Assembly (NCBI GenBank): GCA_964508195.1 | Contig: CAZDSH010000001.1 | Coordinates: 131,351 to 195,350 of the forward strand | Length of the DNA: 64,000 bases | Direction of reading: 5' to 3' | Source of the DNA: an uncultured Clostridiaceae bacterium | GTDB taxonomy: Bacteria; Bacillota; Clostridia; Ch29 | Shown: one piece after another, positions 13,749 to 63,898 of the stretch | Position numbering within the stretch: the first letter of the stretch is position 1 | Layout of the letters: each line of letters opens with the position of its first letter | Program-made: the position numbers and the translations under genes | The notes under the pieces: model-generated | What the model was told of the DNA's origin: nothing | Databases searched by the model: none | The model's input: the letters and a program-made list of their open reading frames with translations, nothing else

Positions 13749-13871
13749 GTCTTTATCCCCCCTTTTTACTTAATGGAACATGCCTTAACATTATATATAT
13801 ATGAGGGGAAAACCGTATTATTACTAAAAAAAATACGTCCCCCACGCCCCCTGGACCGCCACCTATTTCAG

Positions 13872-18383: not shown

Positions 18384-19496
18384 TTACCTGCCTCGATCCC
18401 TTTTATCTTCATTTTCGGAGGACAGATTAAACTCCCTTGTTATAAAACCCTTAACCTTAGAGAATATCTCCCTGTCGCCGGTACTTATAAATAAAAACCC
18501 GATACCGCCTAATAAGACGATGCCTATAAGCCAGGCTATACCCGATTTAGAACCTTTGCCGCTTTTTTTGACGCCCGGTTCGACTGTACCCTGTTTTGTA
18601 CTTTCGCCATATAAGGCCTTAGTGACTATACCGGCAAAGATCTTTGCACCATTTTCCGCCCTTTCCCTAGTGTGCTCATGACTTCCGAACTCGAACAACA
18701 GCATCCTTGGTGCAAGGTCCTGGTTGTAGTTTCCCTTTGCATAGAATATATCCCTGACAAAACCGGCATTAGTCTTATCGGAGACAGCTTTAATCTTGCG
18801 GGCCAATTCCTCATTGGCCTTTATATTTTGATTTTGCCTGCCTAAAACAATCCTTACCCGGGCTACCGGCGTATCATCTATAGTGGCGATATAATGTTCC
18901 TTAGGTATGGCATCCCTGTGGACATCAAATAGCGCATCGGGCCTTTGTTGAAGCAGTTTTATCGCCGTTCGCCTAGATCGTATATAGGAATTAGCGTCAT
19001 GGGGCTCGTGGGGCGTTTTATTAATAATGGCCTTTACTCCATGCTTTTCGAAACCCTTTTTGAAGGCCTCCCCTACTTTCATTATGCCGCCGTTCCCTGG
19101 TTTACTGTCAGTACCGTCGGAGGGTACGTAGGACTCGGCGCTATGACTGAAATATAGGGCTACCTTTTTTTCTTTTTCAGCGGTCTGCATCGCTTCCGTA
19201 ACGAGCATTTCATCTATTACCGGCATTTTTATATCCTCTATAAAACGTGCGTATGCCTTCTTTTGATCCCGGTCCGCCTCTAAGACCTCGTACATTTTGT
19301 TATCGGTACTGTGGTACTTGTCCCCTACGTCTACTTCCCAGGACGTGGCAAATATTTCGTCCCCCGTACCCTGTTCAAAGACGATATAATATTCCCTATT
19401 ACTGTGTTCATTGCCAACGGTATCAGCGCGGATCGTTATACCCATCGTTAACAGCATTATAATAATAGGTACTAATATACGTTTTTTAATCCCCAT
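18384..19496 (-). CDS. spoIIP: Stage II sporulation protein P, the engulfment amidase.
   Basis: N-terminal signal/TM segment. Motif ALYFSHSAESYVP corresponds to the conserved SpoIIP HTHxxESY region. Length is 370 aa. Confidence 0.75.
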   Translation of the reverse strand: MGIKKRILVPIIIMLLTMGITIRADTVGNEHSNREYYIVFEQGTGDEIFATSWEVDVGDKYHSTDNKMYEVLEADRDQKKAYARFIEDIKMPVIDEMLVTEAMQTAEKEKKVALYFSHSAESYVPSDGTDSKPGNGGIMKVGEAFKKGFEKHGVKAIINKTPHEPHDANSYIRSRRTAIKLLQQRPDALFDVHRDAIPKEHYIATIDDTPVARVRIVLGRQNQNIKANEELARKIKAVSDKTNAGFVRDIFYAKGNYNQDLAPRMLLFEFGSHEHTRERAENGAKIFAGIVTKALYGESTKQGTVEPGVKKSGKGSKSGIAWLIGIVLLGGIGFLFISTGDREIFSKVKGFITREFNLSSENEDKRDRGR

Positions 19497-20181
19497 CCCT
19501 ATCGCCGCCGTTTCTTGGTATACTGTCTCTAGTTTTTACGAATTCACCCTTATCGAAGACCATATCCTTTTTATCGGTACCCCCCTGCAATTTCTCCCGC
19601 GTTTCGCCTATAACCTCGGCTAACACTACGGCAAATATACCGGCTATCACGGTGGCGTCAAAGGCGCCGGCCCCGCCAAAAACTGTCTTTCCGGGGCTTT
19701 TAGTAAAACCGTTAACTAAGGCCTGGGCCAGATCACTTAAAATAATAGCCATAATGCCTGCTATGAAGGCCGCCCTCCTAGACCTGCCTAGCAAATACGC
19801 TATGCCACCGCCTATCAGCGCATAAAGATAATTGTAGGTCATAAACTGGTTCTCCTCGGGCCCCGCCGGTAAAACCTTGCTCAAGCCATACACCACGGCC
19901 CCTGATGCAATAGCTGCAACGACGGCCCTCGTCCTTTCTTCAGCGGTCCCGGCCTTTATAAACAGATACACCGCCAGGGCTATAGGTATAATCGCTCCTC
20001 CTACGTTAATGGAAACATTTTTGTTTATGCCTATATCCGGTATAAAGGTACCCACCAGCATCGCGACGATAACCGCTAGGGCACCGCCGTCGGTAAGCCT
20101 TAATCTGTCCAATACCCTATGGCCGACCCCTAAAAGGATAAGCACCGATACGAGTACCAATATTACCAATCCAACGGGCAT
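19486..20181 (-). CDS. Integral membrane protein, possibly of the DUF1614 family.
   Basis: 231 aa, polytopic, with a C-terminal acidic tail. Family assignment is by recall only. Confidence 0.35.
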   Translation of the reverse strand: MPVGLVILVLVSVLILLGVGHRVLDRLRLTDGGALAVIVAMLVGTFIPDIGINKNVSINVGGAIIPIALAVYLFIKAGTAEERTRAVVAAIASGAVVYGLSKVLPAGPEENQFMTYNYLYALIGGGIAYLLGRSRRAAFIAGIMAIILSDLAQALVNGFTKSPGKTVFGGAGAFDATVIAGIFAVVLAEVIGETREKLQGGTDKKDMVFDKGEFVKTRDSIPRNGGDRDGD

Positions 20182-27689: not shown

Positions 27690-28403
27690 TTATTGTAATT
27701 TTACATATTTAAAGCTCATAGCCCCTGTATATCCGGGAACGATTAATTCTTCCTTCCGTTCAATGTTCACCTGCAGCCCGTAATATTCCAAGAGATCGAG
27801 GTAACCGCTCCCATAATCGTTCATATAACCGTAGAGGTTGTTCGGCTCACCTATTGCCACGATTGTATAGGGCGGTGCATATCTGACGGTATTAATATTT
27901 ATAGTCGGCCCCCCGCATCGTATCTCGGTATTAAACATTATCCTTTGACCGTTAATCGCAATAGCCTCGGCCCCCGCCGCCTTAAGCTCTGAGACGATTG
28001 CCAGGATATCCTCATCGTGTATCAACAAAAGATTAGGATCATTATCTCCTATGATCTCCCAGCTACTATCGTCTAGCAATATCTCAATGCCCGGCCCCGT
28101 AACCTCCGTAAGCCCCGCTAGCATCTCCGCCTGGGTTAACTGCTGTTCTAAGACTTCGTTAAGGTTACCCTGTTCGTCCATTGCCTTTTTGTATTCTTCG
28201 TTCCTGGCCCTTAGACCGATGTACTGCTTATGTAGGCCATCTATTTCGGACAGGGTATTGTGCAGATCATTCTCAAGTTGCGGTACCGTCTCGGGGCTTA
28301 TTAGCCCTATCCCTTCCTGGGGTATTTTAAACTGAACTGTGAGGGTAAGCCCTAATAGCAGTGCCCCTAAGAACATCACACCATTTTTAAACAGTTTTTT
28401 CAT
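27690..28403 (-). CDS. DUF881 domain protein (YlxW/YlxX-like).
   Basis: N-terminal TM segment, a coiled-coil and a DUF881-like C-terminus. It is the paralog of the next gene. Confidence 0.7.
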   Translation of the reverse strand: MKKLFKNGVMFLGALLLGLTLTVQFKIPQEGIGLISPETVPQLENDLHNTLSEIDGLHKQYIGLRARNEEYKKAMDEQGNLNEVLEQQLTQAEMLAGLTEVTGPGIEILLDDSSWEIIGDNDPNLLLIHDEDILAIVSELKAAGAEAIAINGQRIMFNTEIRCGGPTININTVRYAPPYTIVAIGEPNNLYGYMNDYGSGYLDLLEYYGLQVNIERKEELIVPGYTGAMSFKYVKLQ

Positions 28404-28414
28404 ACGGCCTCCCC

Positions 28415-29119
28415 CTATTTGCTAACGGGCTTTGCATATTTAAATTCAAGGACTTTGCTATACCGGGGCACGAACATATCCTGTTCTTTTTTTATGTTCA
28501 CAGAAATTCCGTAATAATCGAGCTCCTCGACTATACCGCCCTTTAGTTTTAGCGCAGCCTCTAGCGTCTGGGGATCACCGATAGCCTTAAATACGAAGGG
28601 AGGAGCAAATCTCTGGTAGTTTATGTTTATATGGGAGCCCGCAAGCCTTATTTCCGTCATCGCTATTACTCGCTGATCGTTAATAGATACGGCTTCGGCT
28701 CCGGCGGAGTTCAGCTCGTTTAGCACCTTAAGGAGCTTATCATAATGTATATAAAACACGTTAAACTCCTGATCAAAGTGCGCCTCGGAAAGGGTGACTA
28801 TAATACCGGGCCCCTCTACATCTGTGAGCCCAGCCAACAGTCTGGCCTTTTCTAAATCACTTTTCATCCCTTCGGCTATTACGCTCACCTTAGCGGCGGA
28901 TTCCTCGTATTCCGATATCCTGTTTTCGTATTCCCGAATCTGCTGCAAAAGGGTATCCCTTTGGGCCCTTGCATCCTTAAGCTCCTTCGCAAGCTCCTGG
29001 GCCCTCTGTACCGAGAGTATACCCCCATAATCCTGCACATTCCTGAATTGGAGGGCTAACATTAACCCCAGGGCTAAGCACACTATGCCTATTGAAAGCT
29101 GTGCCTTAATCCTTCTCAC
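28415..29119 (-). CDS. DUF881 domain protein (YlxW/YlxX-like).
   Basis: Same architecture as the neighbouring gene. The order divIB-DUF881-DUF881-sbp-ftsA matches Bacillus. Confidence 0.7.
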   Translation of the reverse strand: MRRIKAQLSIGIVCLALGLMLALQFRNVQDYGGILSVQRAQELAKELKDARAQRDTLLQQIREYENRISEYEESAAKVSVIAEGMKSDLEKARLLAGLTDVEGPGIIVTLSEAHFDQEFNVFYIHYDKLLKVLNELNSAGAEAVSINDQRVIAMTEIRLAGSHININYQRFAPPFVFKAIGDPQTLEAALKLKGGIVEELDYYGISVNIKKEQDMFVPRYSKVLEFKYAKPVSK

Positions 29120-42862: not shown

Positions 42863-43594
42863 TTATTCTAATGCTCCCTTATTTCTGTAGAACATAATAA
42901 GTGTCCCGATTATTATTACGCCTATACTCACAAATTGGGCGGCCCTTATATTCCCAAGCATGAGACTGTCCGTCCGTAACCCCTCTACAAAAAACCTTCC
43001 TACGGAATAAAGAATTAAATATAATAAAAATATGTTACCCCTTGTTTTTCTCCTTTTACGGTACCCTAGGAGTATCAAAAATATTGAAAGGTTCCAAAGG
43101 GATTCGTATAAAAATGTAGGGTGCACCCTGAGACCGTCAACCATTATTCCCCAGGGCAGATCCGTAGGCACGCCATGGGCCTCCTGGTTTACAAAATTAC
43201 CCCACCGTCCGATGGCCTGTCCCAGTATAAGGCCCGGGGCCGCAACATCGACCAAGGCCCAAAAGTTTACGTCCTTTACCCTTGTATATATAACCGCCGT
43301 GATGATCGCTGCTATGAGGGTACCATGAATAGCTAAACCCCCACCCCTTATATTTAATATCTGCTTAGGATTCATTGAGTAGTACTCCCAGTTAAAAAAT
43401 ACATAATAAAGCCTTGCCCCTATAATACCCGAGGGTATTGCGAATATAACGAGATCCAGTATTATATTCTCATCCATACCGACCCTTTTAGACTCGCTCA
43501 AGGCATACAAAAGACCGCATACTATGCCGACGGCCATAATAATGCCGTACCACCTGACGGCTATACCGAATATTTCAAAAGCCACAGGATTCAT
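42863..43594 (-). CDS. lgt: Prolipoprotein diacylglyceryl transferase.
   Basis: Polytopic protein with the conserved start FEIFGIAVRWYG and the H103/Y235-type Lgt signature region. Confidence 0.85.
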   Translation of the reverse strand: MNPVAFEIFGIAVRWYGIIMAVGIVCGLLYALSESKRVGMDENIILDLVIFAIPSGIIGARLYYVFFNWEYYSMNPKQILNIRGGGLAIHGTLIAAIITAVIYTRVKDVNFWALVDVAAPGLILGQAIGRWGNFVNQEAHGVPTDLPWGIMVDGLRVHPTFLYESLWNLSIFLILLGYRKRRKTRGNIFLLYLILYSVGRFFVEGLRTDSLMLGNIRAAQFVSIGVIIIGTLIMFYRNKGALE

Positions 43595-43613: not shown

Positions 43614-44909
43614 CTACTGCGGCGAAATTATTGATAGGGAAGAAACCCAAGGCTTTATATGCCCTTTAAACCTTTCCCTTACGGCCTCTAACTCTATCCC
43701 CTCTAATATCCCGATAAAATCCAAAAAGCTTGCCCCCTTAAAGTGGTAGGAAATGAAGTTAGAGGCTATATATTCTAACCTATCGAAGTTCCTCAGGTAT
43801 CTACCTAACAGCTTGTTCCTTGCCAGAAGAAATTCCTCCTGTTTTAGGTCATTTTGTTCCGTATCCATGATCCACCCTTTAATCATATCAAAAAGCCTAT
43901 CAGGATCAGGGGACTCGCCCCCTACCATGGAATAGGAATAATTCGTCTCCCCCACAAAATCGAAATTAAAGCTATCGTTTATAAGGCCATCATTATATAG
44001 CCTTTGGTACAGTTCAGAACTCTTTCCGAATAGCATCTCCAGTAAAACCGAAGTCATTATTTCCCTTTCAAAAAGTTCTTTCCCCGATAACTCCTTTTCG
44101 GTATCCTTAATGCCTATATTGAAAAGGGGCTGGGCCACGGCCAGGGCTTGCTTTGTCCTTTCTGCGCGGACACTTTCCGGCTCCTTCGGATAGAACCTTT
44201 TTATGCTATCCGCCCTCTTATCCGCCCCCGTCTTTATGCTTCTATCTATCAAATCTAGGGTATCTTCCACATCTATATTCCCTACTACAAACAAAGCCAT
44301 ATTGTCCGGGTGATAAAAAGTATTGTAGCATTTGTATAATATATCCCTATCTATACTAGTTATACTTTCAACGGTCCCGGCGATATCAACCCTTACGGGA
44401 TGTTCATGATACAAGCCTTGAAGCATGTTAAAAAGGCTTTTCCATTCGCCGTTATCATCATACATTTTGATCTCCTGGGCAATGATCCCCTTTTCCTTTT
44501 CCACATTTTCATCGGTAAAATGGGGTTCCTGCACAAACCCCAGTAACACTTCTAAACACTCGTAAAAGTTTTTAGTAGAGGAAAAAAGGTACGCGGTATT
44601 CGTAAAGCCCGTGTAGGCGTTGGCGGAGGCGCCTAACCTTGAGAACCGGTCGAATACATTCCCCCCTTCTTCCTCGAAGAGCTTATGCTCGAGGAAGTGG
44701 GCTACGCCCGCCGGTACCTCCGTTATATGTTCCTCACCGGGAACTATAAACTTCATATCCACGGAACCAAACCTCGTAGCAAATAGGGCAAATTGTTTCG
44801 AATACTCCTTTTTAGGGAGCAAAAAAACTTTAAGACCGCTGTCCAATTTTGAATAATATAGCTTTTCCCTTATCCTATCCATATTCATTTCCTTAAAGGA
44901 TACTGTCAT
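43614..44909 (-). CDS. M16 (pitrilysin/insulinase) family metallopeptidase.
   Basis: Inverted zinc motif HFLEH (HxxEH) is present. Length is 431 aa. Confidence 0.75.
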   Translation of the reverse strand: MTVSFKEMNMDRIREKLYYSKLDSGLKVFLLPKKEYSKQFALFATRFGSVDMKFIVPGEEHITEVPAGVAHFLEHKLFEEEGGNVFDRFSRLGASANAYTGFTNTAYLFSSTKNFYECLEVLLGFVQEPHFTDENVEKEKGIIAQEIKMYDDNGEWKSLFNMLQGLYHEHPVRVDIAGTVESITSIDRDILYKCYNTFYHPDNMALFVVGNIDVEDTLDLIDRSIKTGADKRADSIKRFYPKEPESVRAERTKQALAVAQPLFNIGIKDTEKELSGKELFEREIMTSVLLEMLFGKSSELYQRLYNDGLINDSFNFDFVGETNYSYSMVGGESPDPDRLFDMIKGWIMDTEQNDLKQEEFLLARNKLLGRYLRNFDRLEYIASNFISYHFKGASFLDFIGILEGIELEAVRERFKGHIKPWVSSLSIISPQ

Positions 44910-46204
44910 CTTTTTATTTCCTCCTTCACGGCCCTTTTATTACTAGTTAAGAAATATGTAACGACATGTTCTATTTCGTCGGCTATGCCCGTTACATCTT
45001 CCTTTGTCACCTGTTCTATCCTCTCTACCAGTACCTCTGGGGTCATGTCGTGGCCGGATACAATTTTGTTTATTAAGAAATCTACGATCTGTAATTGATT
45101 GTCCTGCATAGAATGAATACCGTTTATCAGCGCCTTTTTTGCCGCGGTAAGCTCGCTATCCGATATGTTACCCCCTTGCATCTCGTCTAACTGTTCGTTT
45201 ATTATGCCAAGGGTTTTGTCGTAATTATCTATCTCAATACCGGCACCTATGACCATAAGTCCTTTAAAACTCTCTAACCGGGAAAAGGAATAATAGGCAA
45301 GGCTAGCCTTTTCCCTGACATTGTTAAAGAGCTTTGAATGTGCCCCTCCCCCTAGTATGCTGTTATAAACCAACATGGGAACGTATCGGACATCGGCATA
45401 ATCCACGCCGGTGGTATAACCTATCGTAATTTTACCTTGGCTTACATCCATAGGTTCAATTACTTCCCTAGGTTTATCCTGTTCGATGGATAATACATCC
45501 TGCCGTGGATATTTTATATCCAGCCTTTTAAGGGTCGGCGGATTGTCCAAAAAGGGTTTCAGATCGGCTATATCTACATCCCCCACTACGAATATATCTA
45601 TAGGGGCCTCGGTTATAATATCCTCGTAATGCCTCGCTAACCCCTCGGGGGTCAGGCTCTTTAGTTCTTCCGTACCACCATATCTATACCTGCCGAAGGG
45701 CTGCCCCTTGGCCATCTCCTCGTAACATCGGTCTATAGAGTACTGAATCTTATCGTTTATCCTCGAATTTATCAGTTCTCCGAGATTGTGTTTCTCCTGA
45801 TTAAAGTATTCCTCCTTAAAGCCTGTCCCTTCAATGAGCGGCCTCTCTATAAGCCCCGTTAAAAAGTGCAGTATATCGGCTACTACACCTTCACCCTTAA
45901 TAGTATACTTATCGCTTATCACATCGCTACCCATATAGATTAACTGCACATCACCTTTTTTTAACACATCCACGTTTAACGAGGCGCCATAGCACTTTCC
46001 CAGGAATCTTTCAATAGCCCCCATATCCCTTAAATCCTCATTACCCCGTTTAAGCACACGGGGTAGCAGTGCATTGCCCGTCGTATTTACATCTAAGGAC
46101 CGGTGAACCAAAAGGTTTACTGAAACTGTTTTGAATTTCGGTTCCCTAATAAGATATAAATTGATCCCTTCTCCAAGCCGTTCTTTGTAGTATATACCCT
46201 CCAT
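44906..46204 (-). CDS. M16 family peptidase-like protein without an HxxEH motif. It is probably the non-catalytic partner.
   Basis: 432 aa with M16-like architecture. 4-nt overlap with the downstream active M16 gene. Confidence 0.6.
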   Translation of the reverse strand: MEGIYYKERLGEGINLYLIREPKFKTVSVNLLVHRSLDVNTTGNALLPRVLKRGNEDLRDMGAIERFLGKCYGASLNVDVLKKGDVQLIYMGSDVISDKYTIKGEGVVADILHFLTGLIERPLIEGTGFKEEYFNQEKHNLGELINSRINDKIQYSIDRCYEEMAKGQPFGRYRYGGTEELKSLTPEGLARHYEDIITEAPIDIFVVGDVDIADLKPFLDNPPTLKRLDIKYPRQDVLSIEQDKPREVIEPMDVSQGKITIGYTTGVDYADVRYVPMLVYNSILGGGAHSKLFNNVREKASLAYYSFSRLESFKGLMVIGAGIEIDNYDKTLGIINEQLDEMQGGNISDSELTAAKKALINGIHSMQDNQLQIVDFLINKIVSGHDMTPEVLVERIEQVTKEDVTGIADEIEHVVTYFLTSNKRAVKEEIKR

Positions 46205-46391
46205 CCGTTGTCCTCCTTTTCTATGTCCCTTAAGGGTGTTATCCCTTGTTTTGTATGTAGATGCCTATATACCTTAATTTATAATATTATTAAGAGTTAA
46301 CTCTATATTTATCCATATAACCATGAATCCCTTCTTTGGATTCAATAAAGACCTATAAAAATTGCCCTTACAAGGCCAAAAACCGGCGATA

Positions 46392-47606
46392 TTAATCCTC
46401 GAACAGATCCCACGCCATTTCAAGCCTTTCTATCAGTGCGTCTATTAAATGTTCGCTATCCCCCCAGGGACCTATAAACTCCACATCCATATATTCCGGT
46501 AGGTTTAGCTTTTCCAGAGTCCTAGGCAACGTCCTTTGAACGTTCAAATCCAAGCTTTCAAACCCCGCGGCCACTACGATGAGTTTATCTATTTGGTGTT
46601 CCATAAGAGAATCCGCCGCATCCCTTATCCCAGGCCGCCTATGACGTAGGTAAGCAACCTTTATCCTTTTATTCTCATACCCGTTTTTCATTACGCTCTC
46701 CTTAATCTTATTATAGAAAACTGCTTCCCGTTTAACGGCCTCGGGATATCTTTTTCGAATTTTTTTGTCATTCCCCGTCGCTACCAACACAATCCCTATC
46801 TGGTCCGGGTCCCTTCCCCGGGCCCCTTCTATAATACGTTGTTCGTAATAGGAAATAAGTGCATCATGATTCCAAAGGGGAAATGTAAACTTTACTTCGG
46901 CTTTTATACCGCTTTTGTTTATCGTGTCTAATATTTTGGCATCTATTATCCCTTTATAGGGCTGCTCTACTAATAAGTTATTTAACACGATTATTTTATT
47001 ATACCCATCATTTAAAATATCCCCCACCGATGTTTCAATAAAGGGCGGCCCGAAGAGGTTTGCCCTGTATAGCCTAAACTCATCGCCGATCCTTTTACTG
47101 AGTTCATTGTACAGGTTTTCACCGGTTCCGATACAATATCCCCAATCGGTCCCTTTAATGTTTCGTTTTAACTGTAATGCTCTAACGGGCATATTCCACC
47201 ATCTTACGCCGTCCATACCTACTTTTCTTTTTATGTTTAACCGATACAACACATCCTTATAATTGTATTCGCTAAGCTCCCCGGGCGAAAGGAGCAATAG
47301 GGCTATCTCTTCCCTCCTTTCCGATGGACATATCTCGCTTACGCTAGTTTTAACCGGGGATACACAAAACAAAAGAGCGCATAAAAGGTACCCACAAATC
47401 GTGATCCCCGCAATACCCAGTACCATCATTACCTTTCCCCTACGCTTTTTTATTAAAACCATAAGGGTAAAAAATATTGAGCACAAAAGAATAATCTCTA
47501 TTAATTGCGAAACACCCTGCAGAGCCATAGCCATGGCGATAGAAAAGCCCATTAAAAGCCCGAGGAACATTAACAACAAATTTTTTAAACCTAGACCAGC
47601 CCTCAT
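46392..47606 (-). CDS. Ferrochelatase/CbiX-like (class II chelatase fold) protein with an N-terminal membrane anchor of about 85 aa containing 3 TM segments.
   Basis: The C-terminal 310 aa follow the ferrochelatase pattern (LLLSPG..., RW..P, GPP, VAAGFESLDLNVQRTL). The canonical catalytic His and Glu are not evident. The hydrophobic N-terminus is Cys-containing. Confidence 0.45.
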   Translation of the reverse strand: MRAGLGLKNLLLMFLGLLMGFSIAMAMALQGVSQLIEIILLCSIFFTLMVLIKKRRGKVMMVLGIAGITICGYLLCALLFCVSPVKTSVSEICPSERREEIALLLLSPGELSEYNYKDVLYRLNIKRKVGMDGVRWWNMPVRALQLKRNIKGTDWGYCIGTGENLYNELSKRIGDEFRLYRANLFGPPFIETSVGDILNDGYNKIIVLNNLLVEQPYKGIIDAKILDTINKSGIKAEVKFTFPLWNHDALISYYEQRIIEGARGRDPDQIGIVLVATGNDKKIRKRYPEAVKREAVFYNKIKESVMKNGYENKRIKVAYLRHRRPGIRDAADSLMEHQIDKLIVVAAGFESLDLNVQRTLPRTLEKLNLPEYMDVEFIGPWGDSEHLIDALIERLEMAWDLFED

Positions 47607-47738
47607 AAAACCCCTCCTTCCTTTTCTAACTAATATTTATGCCATGGCTCCCGTATAAATAACACAAAAAAACAATGAGGACCCGGGATATTCCCGGGTC
47701 CTCCCAAAAAGATGTTTTCTTCTGGATCTTAATGCCTA

Positions 47739-49673: not shown

Positions 49674-50279
49674 CTAGGGGCAATAAAAGTCATGGTTGCC
49701 TATAGTCGTTACGTATTCTAACCTTTCCCTAAACCATTTGGCAGCACCCTTGCCTGCAAGGTTTTCATATATAAAAAACAGTGCATTCCCTACGGTTTGC
49801 CCGTTATCCCCCGCGGGTTTTTCCCCCGCTAAGGCATCCATAGCGGCTCTATAGGCCTCTTCACCGGGTTCTTTGTTCTTCCATCCGCCATCGGTTAACG
49901 GTTGAAATTGGCCCCTTTGGTATATTACGCCCTTTATAGTATCGGGAAAGTTTTCGCTCATAACCCTATTCAGTACAACAGCCCCGACCGCTACCTTACC
50001 GTCATAGGGCTCATAGCGGGCTTCACACTCTATTATCTTTGCTAATAGGTAAAGGTCCTCCTCCTTATCCTTATCTATCCCCTTTGCGCCTCGGCTTACT
50101 ACGGCCCCTGGGCTTAATGCAGCGGGCATCATCCTTTGATCCTGTAAAGGCGTTACCCCCGGGGCACTAAGATAAGTATCCTCTATAGGTTTAACGCTAT
50201 CCTGTCCCCCCGTTAGCAGTATCATCGCCGTTATTGAAATGACGGCCCAGAATACTGCCCTTTGTGCTTTTATCATCAT
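49674..50279 (-). CDS. Cell wall hydrolase of the SleB/CwlJ family (spore cortex-lytic enzyme-like).
   Basis: The C-terminal Hydrolase_2 domain (LLAKIIECEARYEPYDGKVAVGAVVLNRV...IGNHDFYCP) matches the SleB catalytic domain. N-terminal signal peptide. Start at MMIKA with GGAGGA upstream. Confidence 0.8.
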   Translation of the reverse strand: MMIKAQRAVFWAVISITAMILLTGGQDSVKPIEDTYLSAPGVTPLQDQRMMPAALSPGAVVSRGAKGIDKDKEEDLYLLAKIIECEARYEPYDGKVAVGAVVLNRVMSENFPDTIKGVIYQRGQFQPLTDGGWKNKEPGEEAYRAAMDALAGEKPAGDNGQTVGNALFFIYENLAGKGAAKWFRERLEYVTTIGNHDFYCP

Positions 50280-50395
50280 TTTCTCCTCCTGCTTATGGAA
50301 ACTTAAACCAACACAAGTCAGAACTATACCATGTATTGGAATACATTGCAACCTCCCTACTGTTTATATCCATTTTTTATATAAAATATAACCAT

Positions 50396-54118: not shown

Positions 54119-55543
54119 TTATCGTCTCCTCATATATCTATTTATCATGTCCTGGGTAATAACGCTACCGGATAAGATACCGGGCTGTGTACCGGGTTTT
54201 GAAAGGCCCTTTATCTCCTTACGAAGTTCCGTTATCTGTGATTCTAATGTATCGAACCTGTCCTTTACACCCTGTTTCATAGCCTCTATTTCCGCCTTCA
54301 ATTCTTCAACCCCATAACCCTTCGTTAGCGGAGCCTCCCCCCCGTTATTATCCTTTTCGTAGGCATCATCATAGTTTCCTATACCGGACTCCCCTCCCTC
54401 AGCCGTAGTGTACCCATGCCGTGCCTTCGATCCATGGCCATTTTCAACCCCGTCCGCCGCAGGCGGTATAGCCAGCTTTATCCTTTCAACGGATCTATGC
54501 AGGAAGGGGATATGAATATCCGGTGGGGAGGTGGCTATTAGTTTCTTTGCATTTAACAGCAGCGAATAGGTACCGTCAAAACCGTAGATCTCTAATTCCC
54601 TACCCCGGGTATGGTGATAATATTTAACCTGACCCCAACTATCGCCCCCGTCATAGGAGGCACGATATCCTAAACTTCCCGCTTCAACCCAGGCTATGTA
54701 AAGGGTATTACGCCTGCTTATTAAAACCGGACCTTCCTCTATATGCCCCGCCTCGATTATCAACTGGGGGTGCATAACATCTATACGCCGAACATCCCTT
54801 ACAAAGAATACGCCCTCGTCATTCCGTAACATTATGGAGCCCTCCCGGAACTCCATATACATTGTCTTTTCCCAGGTACTGTTATCCTTTGTTGCGGATA
54901 ATGTCCACTGGGTACCGTCAAAGTCCCATAACAAAAGGGTACCATTATTTATAGCGGCTATTTTTAGGCCATTATTTTTCCCGATATCCCTATCATAGCA
55001 TATATCTTTAACCCTGTCGGGCATATCGAATACCCTATAGCCCACCCATTCGGTACCGGTCCATTGGTGATGAAAAAGTGCGCAGCCGCCACCCTTTTCG
55101 GAATATACATAAAAAAGGTGCAGACCACCGGATGCCTTCATTATTTTCAGATTGGATATACTGACGGGTTTTCCGGCAAAGTCGTATAGGGTATATCTCA
55201 CCCAACCTTTAAAATCATGGCGGCTGTAGACTACCCGCTGTCCCGCAGTTAGGGCTACTACATGGATATCATCCCGATCATCAATTATTATATCATATTC
55301 CGTAACGGTTTCGTCCATTATTAGATGCCCCGCCTCGGATGCGCCCCTACTCCGGCTTACTACATAGCCGGTTCTGCCCGAGGCCAAGGGATAGAACAGC
55401 CATGCGTTTCTTTTGCTGTCGATAACTATCTTTTTTTCGTATACGCCCTCGATCAAAATATCACCCCCCATAAAAATATATGCCCAGTTAGGACAATTAG
55501 AAGAAACACATATTGATAGATGCACCAAAAACATGCCTGCCAC
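54119..55543 (-). CDS. Hypothetical protein of 474 aa. It has repeated Trp-rich beta-strand motifs and a C-terminal disordered, coiled-coil, basic tail.
   Basis: Long ORF tightly coupled to deoC (5-nt gap). No family is recognised. Start uncertain (GTG at 55543 or a downstream ATG). Confidence 0.5.
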   Translation of the reverse strand: MAGMFLVHLSICVSSNCPNWAYIFMGGDILIEGVYEKKIVIDSKRNAWLFYPLASGRTGYVVSRSRGASEAGHLIMDETVTEYDIIIDDRDDIHVVALTAGQRVVYSRHDFKGWVRYTLYDFAGKPVSISNLKIMKASGGLHLFYVYSEKGGGCALFHHQWTGTEWVGYRVFDMPDRVKDICYDRDIGKNNGLKIAAINNGTLLLWDFDGTQWTLSATKDNSTWEKTMYMEFREGSIMLRNDEGVFFVRDVRRIDVMHPQLIIEAGHIEEGPVLISRRNTLYIAWVEAGSLGYRASYDGGDSWGQVKYYHHTRGRELEIYGFDGTYSLLLNAKKLIATSPPDIHIPFLHRSVERIKLAIPPAADGVENGHGSKARHGYTTAEGGESGIGNYDDAYEKDNNGGEAPLTKGYGVEELKAEIEAMKQGVKDRFDTLESQITELRKEIKGLSKPGTQPGILSGSVITQDMINRYMRRR

Positions 55544-56397: not shown

Positions 56398-56913
56398 TTA
56401 TTTTTCTATACCGATTCTGGCCTGAACACCTTCGTTATAATAATGTTTTATCTCCTTTACCTCACTTATAAGGTCAGCCTTTTCAAGGAGCTCCCGGGGT
56501 GCTTTGCGTCCCGTGAATACGAGCTCAACTCCTTCGGGCCTTTCATCTATCAATCCTAAGAAATCTTCCACGGGTATAAGGCCAAAATGTACTGCAATAC
56601 TCGCCTCATCCAATATCACCACATCGTAATTCCCTGACATTATCACCTTTTTTATGTCTATAAACCCCTCCCTAGCGGCTTCAATATCCTCAGCGTCGGG
56701 CTTTTTTTCTATAAAACAACCTCGGCCGTATTGCTTAACGATGATGTCGGGGTAGAACCTTTTTAGAGCATTGAGTTCGCTATAGTGCATGCCCTTAACA
56801 AACTGTCCGATAAAAACGTTATACCCCGCCCCTACCGCCCTGATTGCAAGCCCTATAGCCGCCGTTGTTTTACCCTTCCCGTCACCGGTGTAGACCTGTA
56901 CATAACCTCTCAT
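56398..56913 (-). CDS. cobO: Cob(I)yrinic acid a,c-diamide adenosyltransferase (CobO/BtuR family).
   Basis: MRGYVQVYTGDGKGKTTAAIGLA P-loop and family pattern. AAAGGGGAA ribosome-binding site before the second ATG. Confidence 0.85.
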   Translation of the reverse strand: MRGYVQVYTGDGKGKTTAAIGLAIRAVGAGYNVFIGQFVKGMHYSELNALKRFYPDIIVKQYGRGCFIEKKPDAEDIEAAREGFIDIKKVIMSGNYDVVILDEASIAVHFGLIPVEDFLGLIDERPEGVELVFTGRKAPRELLEKADLISEVKEIKHYYNEGVQARIGIEK

Positions 56914-57252
56914 AGAAATTCCCCTTTCATACAACATTTCAATGTTTTTAATATTTTGTTATCAATAGTAGCCGACCTTGGACCCTTCGGCCCTATTCCC
57001 AGGATAAACCCTTTGCGGGCCGTACGCCGCATCCTGCTGTTACCATCGTCATAGCTGCACCCTATTTGTTACCTTAGCCATGATTTGCCCTGCCGTTACT
57101 ATAATCATAACCGCGCTCCTTTGATTATATTTAATATATTCTATAACCCCGCTAAATTCAAACATAAGCGCTAGTTTAATGGAATCATCCTTCCTAATCG
57201 TATGGGAGGGGGTATATATTACCTAGGTTCCGTAGACTGTTAGTATACAATA

Positions 57253-57296: not shown

Positions 57297-57324
57297 TTGA
57301 CATATTTAATGTTTCGTGTATAAT
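57297..57324 (+). promoter_or_regulatory. Consensus sigma-A promoter (TTGACA-16-TATAAT) for the DUF2089 operon.
   Basis: Perfect -35 and -10 hexamers with a 16-nt spacer. An AAGGAGG ribosome-binding site and a TTG start follow 34 nt downstream. Confidence 0.7.
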
Positions 57325-57357
57325 ATTGTTAAAAGTTTAAATAAAGGAGGCATAGTT

Positions 57358-57723
57358 TTGAAAGAGGCCCTGGGCAAGTGTCCCGTTTGCGAAAAGGATT
57401 TGACGATAACGAGATTACATTGCAGCCATTGTAATACCACTATAGAAGGTAATTTTTCGTTATGTAAATACTGCAGACTCACGGAAAAGCAAAAACAGTT
57501 CATCGAGGCCTTCATAAAATGTAGGGGCAATATTAAGGAGGTGGAAAAGGACCTCGGGATCTCATACCCCACGGTTAGGGGCAGATTAGATGATGTCATC
57601 ACCGCCCTAGGGTATTCCATTAAGGAAACCGAAAAGGATAAAAACAAAAAAGAGATCCTTAACATGTTAAGCCGAGGGGAGATCAGCCACGATGAAGCGA
57701 TAAGGCTTATGCAAGGGGAATAA
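57358..57723 (+). CDS. DUF2089 family protein (zinc ribbon plus HTH).
   Basis: CPVCEKDL...CSHCNTTIEG (a four-Cys ribbon) and a C-terminal HTH-like region. TTG start with a perfect AAGGAGG Shine-Dalgarno. The ORF track starts at 57316 in the same frame. Confidence 0.65.
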   Translation: MKEALGKCPVCEKDLTITRLHCSHCNTTIEGNFSLCKYCRLTEKQKQFIEAFIKCRGNIKEVEKDLGISYPTVRGRLDDVITALGYSIKETEKDKNKKEILNMLSRGEISHDEAIRLMQGE

Positions 57724-58151
57724 TGGAGTATCAAGGTACAAAAATCCCATTTAGAAGGGAGAGACGTATTATGAAAGAAGAAATGAAACAAATACTTAAA
57801 ATGATCGAAGAAGGCAAAATTACTGCGGAGCAGGGTATACAACTTATGGAGGCCGGCGGCTTCGACGATGAAGGCAGCATCTCCGAACACAGGGCTGTCG
57901 GTAAATCCAGATGGCTTAGGATAAGGATTTATGACGTACAAACGAACAGGCGAAAGGTAAATATAGGGGTTCCCCTAGCTCTGATATCCGTGGGCTTAAA
58001 GCTAGGCATGAAGTTCGGGTTAGACCGGGAAGAGCTTGAGGGGTTCAACTTCGAAGAAATTATTCAGATGATAGAATCCGGCGAAGAGGGTACTTTAGTC
58101 GATGTAGTAGACGAAAAACAGGGGGACAGAGTCGAAATTTTTGTTGAATAG
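57723..58151 (+). CDS. Hypothetical protein with an N-terminal SHOCT-like helix pair. Translationally coupled to the DUF2089 gene.
   Basis: TAATGG stop/start overlap. EEMKQILKMIEEGKITAEQGIQLMEA resembles the SHOCT motif. Acidic C-terminus. Confidence 0.5.
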   Translation: MEYQGTKIPFRRERRIMKEEMKQILKMIEEGKITAEQGIQLMEAGGFDDEGSISEHRAVGKSRWLRIRIYDVQTNRRKVNIGVPLALISVGLKLGMKFGLDREELEGFNFEEIIQMIESGEEGTLVDVVDEKQGDRVEIFVE

Positions 58152-62212: not shown

Positions 62213-63826
62213 TCAATACCCTTCGATAGTCCCTGCTATTCTGTTCATAAGGACCGCCATTTGGCCCCTGGTTATATTTTCTGTAGGTTTAAAGGTACCG
62301 TCATCGTATCCGACGAACACTCCACGGCTGTTCATCTCTCTAATAGCTTCGTAGGACCATTGACCACGATTAACATCCCTGAAGGGGACATCCTTTTCCT
62401 TTGCAATGTCATCATCGGCATCAATAATCCTTCCTAGGATGACCGCCATCTCTTCCCTGGTAAGGGGTTCCTCGGGACAAAAACTGCCCTGCCCTTTGCC
62501 CTTAACTATACCATGCTCCCAGGCCGTATGTATTTCCCGAGCAGCCCAATGCCCGCCGGGCACATCGTTAAAATAGCCGGTCCCATGACTATTTTGAAGT
62601 CCTAAGGCCCTTACTATTACCGTTGCAGCCTGGCTCCGGGTAAGGGGGCTATCCGGGGCGAAATGGGTACTGGATATACCCTGCATCCAACCCCTGCTCT
62701 CTATATCGGCGATATCCCCCTGGGCCCAATGTCCGAAACTATCCATGAACCAATCCCCGTTAAGCCAAAGGCCAAAATAATCCCAGGTATCAGCGGTCTC
62801 CTGGCCTAGGCTCCAGCTACCGGCCCCCTTTAGCCCGTACTTTTGTACGAGACGTAATTTATGTTTGATCGAATCCTCGTTTTCGAACCACATTACGTAG
62901 GTACCCTGGGGGAGGCTCTTACCGAACAACTTATAATCCCCGCTTCCGGGCCCGACTGTCATGATCGCCTTCGGTGAGGCGGTATATTTATCAAATTCTA
63001 CCTTTCCGTTAAATCTTTTTAACATCTCATGGGCTTTGTTTAAATGCACTCCATAGCCGCCATATTTCTGGCCTACTCGCCAATATCTGCCATAAAAAGG
63101 AACCCCTAATACGATTTTTTCCGCGGGCACGTATTTAAGGGCATATTTTATGGAATCCTCGACAAAGGATAGGCTCGCTACGGGCCCTTGTACGCCGCCC
63201 TCGCTATGCTCGTCGTAGGCCATTATTACTAAATAATCGCTGTACCGGGCTAAAGCCGCGTAATCATAGGAACCCTGCCATCCATTATTAACACCCTTCG
63301 CATTTGCGGCTACGGCTACGGATACCTCCTTTGCCCGGGGTAATTTATCCCGGATTAACCTTACAAGTTCCACATAATCTTCCCGATCCCTTTCCGTGAG
63401 GTTTTCTATATCCACGTTAACCCCATCGAACCCGTATTCCTCTATGGCCTTCGCTATCTGTTCAGCTAACCTTTCCCTATTAGCCATAGCCGCCCTACCC
63501 TTGGCCCTATCCCAATGGTTGCTCAAAAACGGGGCAACCCTTATACCCCGTTCTTCCATGGCCCTTAGGAAATCCCTATCAGTCGCGCCGTTAAGCACTA
63601 AATTTCCCCCTAGGTCCAGGTCAAAGTAACCGGGGGAAACCACATCAAAGGCGCCGCCGGTTTTGTCTACGTTCTGTATAAACGCCCGGGTATCCCCGAA
63701 ATATATGTACGTCATATTAAACCTTTCGCCCTTCGCAAGAGTCCCGTTACAAAAAACAAAACCCATGATTATACTAAAAACTATGCCTATCTTTACAATT
63801 TTCTCCCTAAATATCGGTCTATTCAT
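62213..63826 (-). CDS. Glycoside hydrolase family 18 protein with two C-terminal SLH (S-layer homology) domains.
   Basis: GH18 motif region (FDGVNVDIENL, catalytic DxxDxDxE-like). Two SLH repeats (FNDVPGGHWAAREI... and FRDVNRGQWSYEAI...ITRGQMAVLMNRI). Signal peptide. Start at MNRPIF with AAAGGGGAA upstream. Confidence 0.75.
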   Translation of the reverse strand: MNRPIFREKIVKIGIVFSIIMGFVFCNGTLAKGERFNMTYIYFGDTRAFIQNVDKTGGAFDVVSPGYFDLDLGGNLVLNGATDRDFLRAMEERGIRVAPFLSNHWDRAKGRAAMANRERLAEQIAKAIEEYGFDGVNVDIENLTERDREDYVELVRLIRDKLPRAKEVSVAVAANAKGVNNGWQGSYDYAALARYSDYLVIMAYDEHSEGGVQGPVASLSFVEDSIKYALKYVPAEKIVLGVPFYGRYWRVGQKYGGYGVHLNKAHEMLKRFNGKVEFDKYTASPKAIMTVGPGSGDYKLFGKSLPQGTYVMWFENEDSIKHKLRLVQKYGLKGAGSWSLGQETADTWDYFGLWLNGDWFMDSFGHWAQGDIADIESRGWMQGISSTHFAPDSPLTRSQAATVIVRALGLQNSHGTGYFNDVPGGHWAAREIHTAWEHGIVKGKGQGSFCPEEPLTREEMAVILGRIIDADDDIAKEKDVPFRDVNRGQWSYEAIREMNSRGVFVGYDDGTFKPTENITRGQMAVLMNRIAGTIEGY

Positions 63827-63898
63827 GTCCGTTCCCCTTTCTTCTTTATAATAAAAATAATAAGTTAGGGGGACATAAATAGCAATGCACAATTTATG

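What the first reader, a model, noticed from the sequence alone, without database searches (positions are those of the whole stretch)
46392..47606. Membrane-anchored ferrochelatase-like protein lacking the canonical catalytic His and Glu
A chelatase-fold domain of about 310 aa is fused to an N-terminal segment of about 85 aa with three predicted TM helices and several cysteines. Where HemH-type ferrochelatases have the catalytic His (in the APHFS region) and Glu (in the HSLPE region), this protein has LVEQPY and FTFPLW. It may therefore be a non-canonical or inactive chelatase, or a membrane-tethered porphyrin or metal-binding protein. Soluble CpfC/HemH is the norm in Firmicutes.
Basis: partly seen in the sequence, partly recalled or inferred. 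Interest (0 to 1): 0.5.

Follow-up and report, generated by a model that had tools for sequence, protein, structure and literature searches.

The report
Membrane-anchored ferrochelatase-like pseudoenzyme in spore-forming Clostridia
This gene encodes a membrane-anchored protein with a ferrochelatase fold that has lost every residue needed to put iron into porphyrin; it is still under selection and sits in a conserved spore-envelope gene neighbourhood, so databases that call it "ferrochelatase" are almost certainly wrong about what it does.

The parts
46392..47606 (-). CDS, 404 aa: membrane-anchored class II chelatase-fold protein ('CHEL')
   Evidence: ORF list; 100% identical database protein P0001 and 19 homologs of the same length; dN/dS 0.15-0.18 among orthologs
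47361..47588 (-). Three transmembrane helices (residues 7-28, 32-53, 58-82), with a KKRRGK loop between TM2 and TM3 and a GYLL motif in TM3 conserved across the superfamily
   Evidence: Hydropathy; AlphaFold helices at pLDDT ~90; alignments A1 and A2
47316..47360 (-). Flexible linker (residues 83-97), lower model confidence
   Evidence: pLDDT ~60-78 in this block
46398..47315 (-). Two-lobed chelatase-fold domain (residues 98-403). The catalytic positions are replaced: Thr277 for His183, Asn355 for Glu264, Leu184/Phe185 for Lys87/His88, Asn149/Ile150/Gly156 for Arg46/Tyr47/Ser54. Clade-specific invariants are P108, E110, W136-W137, E214, Y217, W245-N246-H247, E350.
47611..47621 (-). Ribosome-binding site GGAAGGAGGGG, 4 nt before the ATG
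   Evidence: Sequence; conserved in all orthologous loci
47634..47663 (-). Conserved promoter-like element GTTATTTAT-N13-GCATAAATA (orthologs: GCATAAAGATTA). It is not sigma-A-like and has a CATA-type -10.
   Evidence: Present once, at the same position, in all 16 close-family loci and once in the window. It resembles this genome's spoIVA upstream element. It scores only ~10/15 against the sigma-E consensus.
47677..47703 (-). Strong intrinsic terminator (12-bp stem, 9 GC pairs, T-run) ending the upstream pduL-like gene, so CHEL starts its own transcription unit
   Evidence: Terminator scan
46364..46376 (-). Weak terminator-like hairpin just after the CHEL stop codon; whether CHEL is co-transcribed with ymfF in this clade is uncertain
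   Evidence: Terminator scan. The gap to ymfF is 187 nt here but only 22-26 nt in distant relatives.
44906..46204 (-). YmfF-type M16 'inactive' subunit: conserved downstream partner
   Evidence: NCBIfam NF047422 393 bits; follows CHEL in nearly all lineages
43614..44909 (-). YmfH-type M16 active subunit (HFLEH zinc motif): conserved downstream partner
   Evidence: NCBIfam NF047421 533 bits; the motif is visible in the translation; same contexts as YmfF
42863..43594 (-). Lgt (prolipoprotein diacylglyceryl transferase): conserved end of the module, followed by mraZ-rsmH-ftsL-PBP
   Evidence: Pfam LGT in all contexts; tblastn synteny

Best explanation
The gene encodes a bitopic/polytopic membrane protein. 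Three N-terminal TM helices tether a two-lobed class II chelatase (ferrochelatase-like) domain to the membrane. The domain is a pseudoenzyme with respect to metal insertion: it has lost the metal-ligand and proton-abstraction residues and the porphyrin-lid motif. It has kept the cleft architecture, which is now lined by clade-invariant carboxylates, a Tyr and an Arg/Lys (E110, E214, Y217, R/K277, E350, D/E355). I infer that it acts as a non-catalytic ligand-binding or scaffolding module at the membrane surface, most likely the outer face. I further infer that it works in the envelope of sporulating cells together with the products of its conserved neighbours: a YhcN/YlaJ-type spore lipoprotein (lost from this position in the query's sub-clade), the YmfF/YmfH M16 peptidase pair and Lgt. 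Shown: the gene, the fold, the TM helices, the loss of catalytic residues, purifying selection, the superfamily, the conserved module, and that the organism is a spore-former. Inferred: the outward topology, expression during sporulation, and the binding/scaffold role.
Against: There is no experimental datum for any member. The sigma-E match is significant in only one sub-lineage, marginal in two (P 0.05-0.07) and not significant elsewhere; the query clade's element scores ~10/15. The whole region upstream of the dcw cluster is syntenic in these Clostridia, so adjacency may partly reflect inherited gene order and not function. YhcN/YlaJ is absent from the whole 64-kb window and is always separated from CHEL by a terminator. 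One lineage lacks the M16 pair. High-GC relatives look C-in by the same charge rule, and the M16 partners have no signal peptides, which would fit a cytoplasmic domain.
Confidence: 0.5

Rival explanations
1. Cytoplasm-facing membrane adaptor for the M16 peptidase pair. The chelatase-fold domain is inside the cell and recruits or regulates the soluble YmfF/YmfH heterodimer at the membrane, for example to dispose of peptides released there (such as lipoprotein signal peptides, given the Lgt linkage).
For: CHEL and the first M16 gene are 22-26 nt apart, operon-like, in L020/L022/L027/L028. The M16 pair follows CHEL in almost every lineage. YmfF and YmfH lack signal peptides. High-GC relatives are predicted C-in.
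Against: The positive-inside rule gives N-in/C-out for the query and the low-GC clades (7 vs 0 K/R). One lineage keeps YhcN-CHEL-Lgt without the M16 genes. In the window a 187-nt gap with a hairpin separates CHEL from ymfF.
Confidence: 0.2
2. Extracytoplasmic tetrapyrrole (haem or corrinoid) binding protein. It would be a membrane-tethered analogue of the periplasmic or surface chelatase-fold proteins CbiK(P), FetB and IhtB, which bind haem rather than make it.
Against: The query clade specifically lost the lid motif (R46->N, Y47->I/L, S54->variable) and all His ligands. Its only invariant His (H247) is in the inter-lobe segment. There is no transporter or haem-uptake gene in the module.
Confidence: 0.12
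3. A still-active, non-canonical chelatase or dechelatase that uses carboxylate ligands (E110, E214, E350, D/E355) instead of His.
For: Pfam Ferrochelatase above gathering threshold. The cleft positions are occupied by conserved acidic residues in the family. Relatives with four His may be real chelatases. Purifying selection.
Against: The query itself has Thr and Asn at the two key C-lobe positions, while its relatives have Arg/Lys and Asp/Glu, so even the family-level pattern is not kept. NCBIfam hemH and CfbA scores are 19-20 bits against cutoffs of 120-125. There is no tetrapyrrole pathway context. The porphyrin-lid motif is lost.
Confidence: 0.1
4. Inherited gene order only: a lineage-specific membrane protein of unrelated (for example vegetative envelope) function, whose position next to YhcN/YlaJ, M16 and Lgt is a relic of ancestral synteny upstream of the dcw cluster.
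For: The whole 20-kb block is collinear in close relatives. Each of YhcN, CHEL and Lgt has its own terminator or promoter. The sigma-E scoring is non-significant in most lineages.
Against: The module persists at ~20% protein identity while the upstream flank changes completely (PTAC, pst-phoU, YchF, POR). There is a perfect sigma-E promoter in one lineage. All identified hosts are Clostridia with sporulation genes nearby.
Confidence: 0.08

Closest known systems
HemH / CpfC ferrochelatase (Pfam PF00762; B. subtilis CpfC, PDB 1AK1/1DOZ; yeast and human ferrochelatase)
   Different: There is an N-terminal 3-TM anchor, whereas Firmicute CpfC is soluble. His183, Glu264, Lys87, His88, Arg46, Tyr47 and Ser54 are all substituted. 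Identity is 13-15%. The NCBIfam hemH score is 18.9 against a cutoff of 124.6. There is no haem-pathway context.
SirB / CbiX / CbiK / CfbA (sirohydrochlorin chelatases)
   Different: The query clade has Pro108, Tyr217, Thr/Arg/Lys277 and Asn/Asp/Glu355 at those four positions. The query gets no Pfam CbiX or CbiK hit.
Extracytoplasmic chelatase-fold haem-binding proteins: periplasmic CbiK(P) of Desulfovibrio vulgaris (PDB 2XVX/2XVZ) and FetB of Porphyromonas gingivalis (PDB 9B86)
   Different: Those proteins are soluble periplasmic proteins or lipoproteins and keep His residues. The query is anchored by three TM helices, has lost the His and lid residues, and has no haem-uptake context.
Cyanobacterial and plant ferrochelatase with a C-terminal CAB (chlorophyll a/b-binding-like) transmembrane helix (own knowledge)
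   Same: A ferrochelatase-fold domain fused to a membrane anchor.
   Different: In those enzymes the anchor is a single C-terminal helix and the enzyme is fully active with canonical residues. Here the anchor is N-terminal with three helices, and the catalytic residues are gone.
YpeB, the membrane-anchored partner of SleB and YlaJ in Bacillus spores (PMC12331253)
   Same: A functional analogy only: a membrane-anchored, non-enzymatic extracytoplasmic protein encoded next to a YlaJ/YhcN-family lipoprotein gene. A SleB-like Hydrolase_2 gene lies three genes upstream of CHEL in the window.
   Different: There is no sequence or fold relationship (YpeB has PepSY domains; own knowledge). No interaction has been tested.

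Membership tests
HemH/CpfC ferrochelatase | Two-lobed class II chelatase fold of the ferrochelatase type | tested here: met
HemH/CpfC ferrochelatase | Sequence-model membership: Pfam PF00762 gathering score; NCBIfam TIGR00109 hemH equivalog cutoff | tested here: inconclusive
   Pfam 31.7 bits against 27, a marginal pass covering residues 164-350 only. NCBIfam hemH 18.9 bits against 124.6, a clear fail. phmmer against PDB sequences finds no chelatase.
HemH/CpfC ferrochelatase | Catalytic/metal-ligand His (B. subtilis His183, human His263) | tested here: not met
   Aligns to Thr277. The position is Arg in 11, Lys in 7 and Thr in 1 of the 19 close homologs, and His only in distant clades.
HemH/CpfC ferrochelatase | Conserved active-site Glu (B. 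subtilis Glu264, human Glu343) | tested here: not met
   Aligns to Asn355 in the query; Asp or Glu in 16 of 19 close homologs
HemH/CpfC ferrochelatase | Porphyrin-binding lid motif L-K-x-R-Y-x-x-I-G-G-x-S-P (B. subtilis Lys44, Arg46, Tyr47, Ser54) and Lys87/His88 | tested here: not met
   Query residues are K147, N149, I150, G156, L184, F185. Only the Lys is kept, whereas all other clades of the superfamily keep Tyr47 and Ser54.
HemH/CpfC ferrochelatase | Haem-biosynthesis genomic context, or presence of the pathway | tested here: not met
   None of the ORFs scanned against Pfam/NCBIfam is a hem, sir, cbi or cob biosynthesis gene, apart from a CobA-type adenosyltransferase at 56398-56937; most ORFs between about 31 and 39 kb were not scanned. 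None was found in 12 homolog loci. The rest of the genome could not be examined.
CbiX/SirB/CbiK/CfbA sirohydrochlorin chelatases | His pair in the N lobe (SirB His10/His76) or in the C lobe (CbiK His145/His207) | tested here: not met
   The query has Pro108/Tyr217 and Thr277/Asn355. Thirteen distant superfamily members have His at all four positions.
CbiX/SirB/CbiK/CfbA sirohydrochlorin chelatases | Model membership (PF01903, PF06180, NF033198) | tested here: not met
   No Pfam CbiX or CbiK hit at E<=1; CfbA 20 bits against a cutoff of 120
TM-anchored chelatase-like superfamily (uncharacterised; defined here) | ~380-420 aa; 2-3 N-terminal TM helices with a G-Y motif in the last helix; chelatase domain with 'G-E' after the first strand and the inter-lobe Trp | tested here: met
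   131 representatives at E<1e-3 and 45 at E<1e-10, with matches often spanning residues ~10-398. TM counts and motif columns: E110 in >90%, W245 in >90%, GY in the consensus.
Sporulation (mother-cell, sigma-E) regulon gene | Sigma-E-type promoter (kmATATT-N13-15-CATAnnnT) upstream | tested here: inconclusive
   15/15 in L022 and L027 (P<0.0005), 13/15 in L025 and L019 (P 0.05-0.07), not significant elsewhere. The window element is conserved, but at TATTTAT-N13-CATAAATA it scores ~10/15.
Sporulation (mother-cell, sigma-E) regulon gene | Host is an endospore former | tested here: met
   SpoIIGA (233 bits), SigG (505 bits), SpoIIP and SpoIVA (784 bits) are in the same window. YhcN/YlaJ and Spo0E-like genes occur in homolog loci.
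Sporulation (mother-cell, sigma-E) regulon gene | Expression during sporulation, or a sporulation/germination phenotype | not testable with these tools
   No expression or genetic data exist for any member; literature searches found nothing on such proteins
Extracytoplasmic chelatase-fold haem-binding proteins (CbiK-P, FetB) | Domain located outside the cytoplasm | tested here: inconclusive
   The positive-inside rule favours N-in/C-out for the query (K/R: N-tail 2, loop1 0, loop2 5) and the low-GC clades, but C-in for high-GC relatives. No dedicated topology predictor was available.

The most novel reading that the evidence does not exclude
The protein is the mother-cell half of a trans-envelope pair. 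It would be expressed from a sigma-E-type promoter and inserted in the outer forespore membrane, with its pseudo-chelatase cleft facing the intermembrane (cortex) space. There it would bind the forespore-made YhcN/YlaJ lipoprotein, or a cortex or germination ligand. That would make it a clostridial counterpart of the Bacillus YpeB-SleB-YlaJ arrangement, built from a recycled tetrapyrrole-enzyme fold.
Probability: 0.12. Interest if true: 0.75.

Novelty: new variant of a known kind. Interest (0 to 1): 0.45.

Why it matters
There are three reasons. First, annotation. RefSeq, UniRef and IMG call these proteins 'ferrochelatase', 'protoheme ferro-lyase' or 'sirohydrochlorin ferrochelatase', which would wrongly credit haem-making capacity to anaerobic Clostridia in metabolic reconstructions. 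Second, enzyme evolution. The superfamily forms a graded series, from four-His, probably active, membrane-anchored chelatase-like proteins, through forms that keep only the porphyrin lid, to this fully remodelled clade. That is a clear natural example of a chelatase fold being turned into something else while staying under selection. Third, spore biology. YlaJ/YhcN lipoproteins control cortex-lytic enzymes in Bacillus through membrane partners. A conserved, unstudied membrane protein encoded beside the clostridial YhcN/YlaJ gene, and in an apparent operon with an M16 peptidase pair, is a concrete candidate for genetic tests in cultivable hosts (Sporosalibacterium, Proteiniborus).

Tried and rejected
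1. Single-sequence and close-family searches of PDB sequences gave no useful chelatase alignment, and hhalign of the close family alone against HemH was insignificant. Only the 68-sequence superfamily profile worked.
2. The word-indexed search with the superfamily alignment hit the candidate cap and returned only known close relatives.
5. I first placed the His183-equivalent at residue 278; recounting gave Thr277.
6. I considered that the conserved upstream element might be a sigma-F or sigma-G promoter or a sigma-K box. The sequences do not fit GCATR-N15-GGnnAnAnT, GHATR-N18-CATnnTA or AC-N17-CATAnnnTA. This was a manual comparison against consensus sequences from my own knowledge.
7. I tested the element as a clean sigma-E box. 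It is not significant for the query clade.
8. A shared motif with the SleB-like gene and with spoIVA was found. The patterns were derived post hoc, so I treat them only as a hint.
9. Rfam finds no known RNA element in the leader.
10. No YhcN/YlaJ homolog is present anywhere in the window.
11. Literature searches for a membrane-anchored or sporulation-linked ferrochelatase-like protein found nothing relevant.

Full report
**1. The observation**

The ORF reported at 46392-47606 exists on the minus strand. It encodes 404 aa and starts at an ATG four bases after a GGAAGGAGGGG ribosome-binding site. A strong intrinsic terminator (47703-47677) ends the upstream pduL-like phosphotransacylase gene, so this gene starts a new transcription unit.

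Hydropathy shows three hydrophobic segments, with a KKRRGK loop between the second and third. There are five Cys in the first 93 residues.

Pfam's Ferrochelatase model is matched just above threshold (31.7 vs 27 bits, residues 164-350). NCBIfam's hemH and CfbA equivalogs score 19-20 bits against cutoffs of 120-125. A single-sequence search of PDB sequences finds nothing.

**2. Fold**

An AlphaFold2 model was built on the 20-sequence family alignment. It is confident (mean pLDDT 87.2, pTM 0.84). It has helices at 7-28, 32-53 and 58-82, a lower-confidence linker at 83-97, and two Rossmann-like lobes.

- Foldseek ranks B. subtilis ferrochelatase first (E 1.9e-11, target TM 0.73, 15% identity).

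The chelatase fold is not in doubt.

**3. Active-site mapping**

That mapping is wrong.

I wrote out the B. subtilis HemH sequence and verified that it is identical to PDB 1AK1 over 310 residues. The close family alone aligns insignificantly to it. A 68-sequence superfamily profile aligns at 97% probability, E 1.2e-10 (also hmmsearch E 1.9e-8).

| B. subtilis HemH residue | Query residue |
|---|---|
| His183 ('SAHSLPE') | Thr277 |
| Glu264 ('DHLEVL') | Asn355 |
| His262 | Asp353 |
| Lys87 / His88 | Leu184 / Phe185 |
| Lys44 / Arg46 / Tyr47 / Ser54 (porphyrin lid) | Lys147 / Asn149 / Ile150 / Gly156 |

'LAPHFS' does align with 'LNNLLVEQ', but that His is not catalytic. 'FTFPLWNHD' corresponds to 'TSVESWYDEP', the inter-lobe segment. 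By strand-pattern equivalence, which is an inference, Tyr13 corresponds to Pro108.

**4. A wider superfamily, and graded loss**

The word-indexed search of 5.8 billion proteins finds only 20 close homologs, 36-66% identical and all about 400 aa. A scan of 185,579 species genomes finds 9, all uncultured Clostridia/Bacillota MAGs.

The exhaustive HMMER scan finds 131 cluster representatives at E<1e-3 and 45 at E<1e-10. Most are 380-420 aa and 19-28% identical, and many match from the TM region to the C terminus. I aligned 123 of them and tabulated the mapped positions by clade.

- **Four-His group (13 representatives).** These have His at all four ligand positions: 'HGEP' and 'SSHT' in the N lobe, as in SirB/CbiX, and 'GHGQP' and 'SIHS' in the C lobe, as in CbiK.
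- **C-lobe-His group (16 representatives).** These keep only the first C-lobe His.
- **Low-GC Clostridial group and a high-GC group.** These have lost the His residues but keep the HemH lid residues (Tyr47 in 31/32 low-GC members, Ser54 in 25/32).
- **Query clade.** It has lost the lid as well. It has acquired its own invariant set: P108, E110, W136-W137, N209-N210, E214, Y217, W245-N246-H247, R/K277, E350, D/E355.

Nei-Gojobori dN/dS is 0.15-0.18 for the three pairs that are not saturated. The gene is therefore remodelled and maintained, not decaying.

It is nevertheless one of the fastest-evolving genes in its block, at 37-58% identity where its neighbours are mostly 60-88% (FtsL, at 41-60%, is similarly divergent).

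**5. Genomic context**

In the window the order on the coding strand is: M23 peptidase, purine nucleoside phosphorylase, SleB-like Hydrolase_2, AroC, PduL-like PTAC | CHEL, YmfF, YmfH (M16 pair; YmfH has HFLEH), Lgt, MraZ, RsmH, FtsL, PBP and the rest of the dcw cluster.

Close relatives are collinear over the whole block, so that alone proves little. The informative cases are distant.

| Homolog | Identity to query | Locus | Context |
|---|---|---|---|
| P0017 | 37% | L004-L006 | YhcN/YlaJ lipoprotein gene directly upstream of CHEL |
| P0015 | 40% | L007, L017 | YhcN/YlaJ lipoprotein gene directly upstream of CHEL |
| P0027 | 23% | L022 | pstSCAB-phoU, YhcN/YlaJ, CHEL, M16, M16, Lgt, Spo0E-like |
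| P0035 | 19% | L020 | pst-phoU, YhcN/YlaJ, CHEL |
| P0026 | 24% | L023 | PTAC, DeoC, YhcN/YlaJ, CHEL, Lgt, MraZ (no M16 pair) |
| P0030 | 24% | L025 | YchF, 67-aa ORF, CHEL, M16, M16, Lgt, Spo0E-like, MraZ |
| P0036 | 23% | L026 | YhcN/YlaJ, CHEL, M16, M16, Lgt |

The last homology search revealed cultured hosts, Sporosalibacterium faouarense, Proteiniborus ethanoligenes, Proteiniborus sp. DW1 and Dethiothermospora halolimnae, all annotated 'ferrochelatase'. The first two show the same module.

A terminator separates YhcN/YlaJ from CHEL in every lineage. CHEL and the first M16 gene are only 22-26 nt apart in four lineages, which looks like an operon. The gap is 187 nt in the window.

The four-His relative P0024 has none of this context. 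The window itself has no YhcN/YlaJ homolog.

**6. Sporulation link**

The organism is an endospore former. SpoIIGA, SigG, SpoIIP and SpoIVA are in the window with strong equivalog scores.

Upstream of CHEL, every close-family locus has the element GTTATTTAT-N13-GCATAAAGATTA, followed by the RBS. It occurs once per locus and once in the window, at 47634-47663. No sigma-70-type promoter is detected there, and no Rfam family matches.

The C. difficile study gives CATATTAT/CATATAAT as the mother-cell -10, with -35 ATA for sigma-E or AC for sigma-K (PMC3789822). I scored KMATATT-N13-15-CATAYWWT in the 100 nt upstream against 2000 shuffles.

- L022 and L027, which belong to one sub-lineage, are perfect (TCATATT-N13-CATATTAT, P<0.0005).
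- L025 and L019 score 13/15 (P 0.05-0.07).
- The others, including the query clade, are not significant.

The window's element (TATTTAT-N13-CATAAATA) resembles this genome's own spoIVA upstream box (TAATAAT-N13-CATATATA). It also resembles a conserved element before the SleB-like gene. Those patterns were derived after the fact, so I treat them as hints only.

YlaJ/YhcN lipoproteins modulate the cortex-lytic enzyme SleB in Bacillus, apparently in a complex with the membrane protein YpeB (PMC12331253).

**7. Topology**

For the query, K/R counts are: N-tail 2, TM1-TM2 loop 0, TM2-TM3 loop 5, and 3 in the 15 residues after TM3, where they are offset by acidic residues. TM3, with its strongly positive N-flank, looks like a signal-anchor, which predicts N-in/C-out with the chelatase-fold domain outside.

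The low-GC clades behave the same way. High-GC relatives give the opposite prediction. No dedicated predictor was available, so this remains an inference at roughly two-to-one odds.

**8. Interpretation**

- **Shown:** a real, selected gene; a 3-TM anchor; a ferrochelatase-type fold; loss of every mapped catalytic and porphyrin-binding residue; membership of an uncharacterised TM-anchored chelatase-like superfamily; and a conserved YhcN/YlaJ | CHEL-M16-M16 | Lgt module in spore-forming Clostridia.
- **Inferred:** that the protein is a non-catalytic binding or scaffold module, that it probably faces outward, and that it acts in the sporulation envelope.
- **Rivals:** a cytoplasmic adaptor for the M16 pair; an extracytoplasmic tetrapyrrole binder like FetB or CbiK(P); a carboxylate-based active chelatase; or mere inherited synteny.

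It should not be filed as a ferrochelatase. The fold criterion is met, but the catalytic His, the Glu, the lid motif, the equivalog model and the pathway context are all tested and not met.

**9. Novelty and score**

No member of the superfamily has been studied, as far as the literature searches show. Database names are automatic. It is a new variant of a known fold family, not a new kind of system.

The interest is moderate. It corrects a misannotation, gives a clear example of the chelatase fold being repurposed, and offers a testable candidate partner for clostridial YhcN/YlaJ and the YmfF/YmfH peptidases. The family is narrow, and the proposed function rests on context alone.

Noticed in passing
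Proteins P0024, P0028, P0031, P0032, P0038, P0040, P0042, P0051, P0068, P0069, P0084, P0110, P0113 (locus L008 6001-7233 for P0024): A clade of ~400-aa, 3-TM-anchored chelatase-like proteins keeps His at all four ligand positions: a SirB/CbiX-like pair in the N lobe ('HGEP', 'SSHT') and a CbiK-like pair in the C lobe ('GHGQP', 'SIHS'). It also keeps the HemH lid motif. These may be genuine membrane-bound chelatases with two pseudo-symmetric sites. The one context examined has no tetrapyrrole genes.
   Followed up: partly
window 50365-50392 (-) and about 50310-50350 (-), upstream of the SleB-like Hydrolase_2 gene (49674-50351): Two conserved promoter-like elements lie in tandem in all orthologous loci: GGTTATATTTT-N12-TGGATATAAA, then a clean sigma-A-type TTGCAA-N17-TGGTATAGT. 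The first resembles the element upstream of the chelatase-like gene. The listed TTG start is probably too far upstream; the real start is likely the ATG of 'MMIKAQ'.
   Followed up: partly
window 13796-13823 (-), upstream of spoIVA (12270-13748): A good sigma-E-type promoter, TAATAAT-N13-CATATATA (13/15 to consensus). It could serve as an in-genome reference for mother-cell promoters.
   Followed up: partly
Proteins P0152, P0168, P0171, P0091 (loci L027, L028): RefSeq and UniRef annotate the His-less homologs of cultured Sporosalibacterium faouarense, Proteiniborus ethanoligenes, Proteiniborus sp. DW1 and Dethiothermospora halolimnae as 'ferrochelatase'. This is probably a systematic misannotation driven by the Pfam hit.
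   Followed up: partly
window 43614-46204 (-): The M16 pair matches the NCBIfam equivalogs named 'EF-P 5-aminopentanol modification-associated protein YfmF/YfmH'. No YmfI-like reductase follows (Lgt does). In Clostridia the pair is instead tightly linked to the chelatase-like gene, so the EF-P-related name may not apply in these organisms.
   Followed up: no
window 56398-56937 (-); L023 889-1419: A CobA-type corrinoid adenosyltransferase lies ~9 kb from the gene. A PduO-type adenosyltransferase lies ~5 kb upstream of the distant homolog P0026, which also sits next to a stand-alone PduL-type phosphotransacylase. This could be coincidence or a weak corrinoid link.
   Followed up: no
window 27690-28403 (-) and 28415-29119 (-): Two adjacent ORFs of ~235 aa, between an FtsQ-like gene and ftsA inside the dcw cluster, have no NCBIfam match at E<=1e-5.
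   Followed up: no
window 54119-55543 (-), 57306-57941 (-), 19486-20181 (-): ORFs of 474, 211 and 231 aa with no Pfam or NCBIfam hit. The 231-aa ORF overlaps the start of spoIIP by 11 nt and may belong to the same operon.
   Followed up: no
window 62213-63892 (-): A 559-aa protein weakly matches a NEAT-domain/leucine-rich-repeat model (88 bits against a cutoff of 1275). It is probably a surface repeat protein and not a true NEAT haem receptor.
   Followed up: no
window 16897-18216 (-): A radical SAM protein related to the TIGR03279 'cyano_FeS_chp' family (394 bits, below the 575-bit cutoff) lies between der (engA) and spoIIP.
   Followed up: no
low-GC homologs (alignment A3), TM1-TM2 loop: A Glu (usually in 'ER') in the short loop between TM1 and TM2 is nearly invariant in the low-GC clade, and a G-Y motif in TM3 is conserved across the whole superfamily. 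The membrane part may therefore be more than a passive anchor.
   Followed up: no
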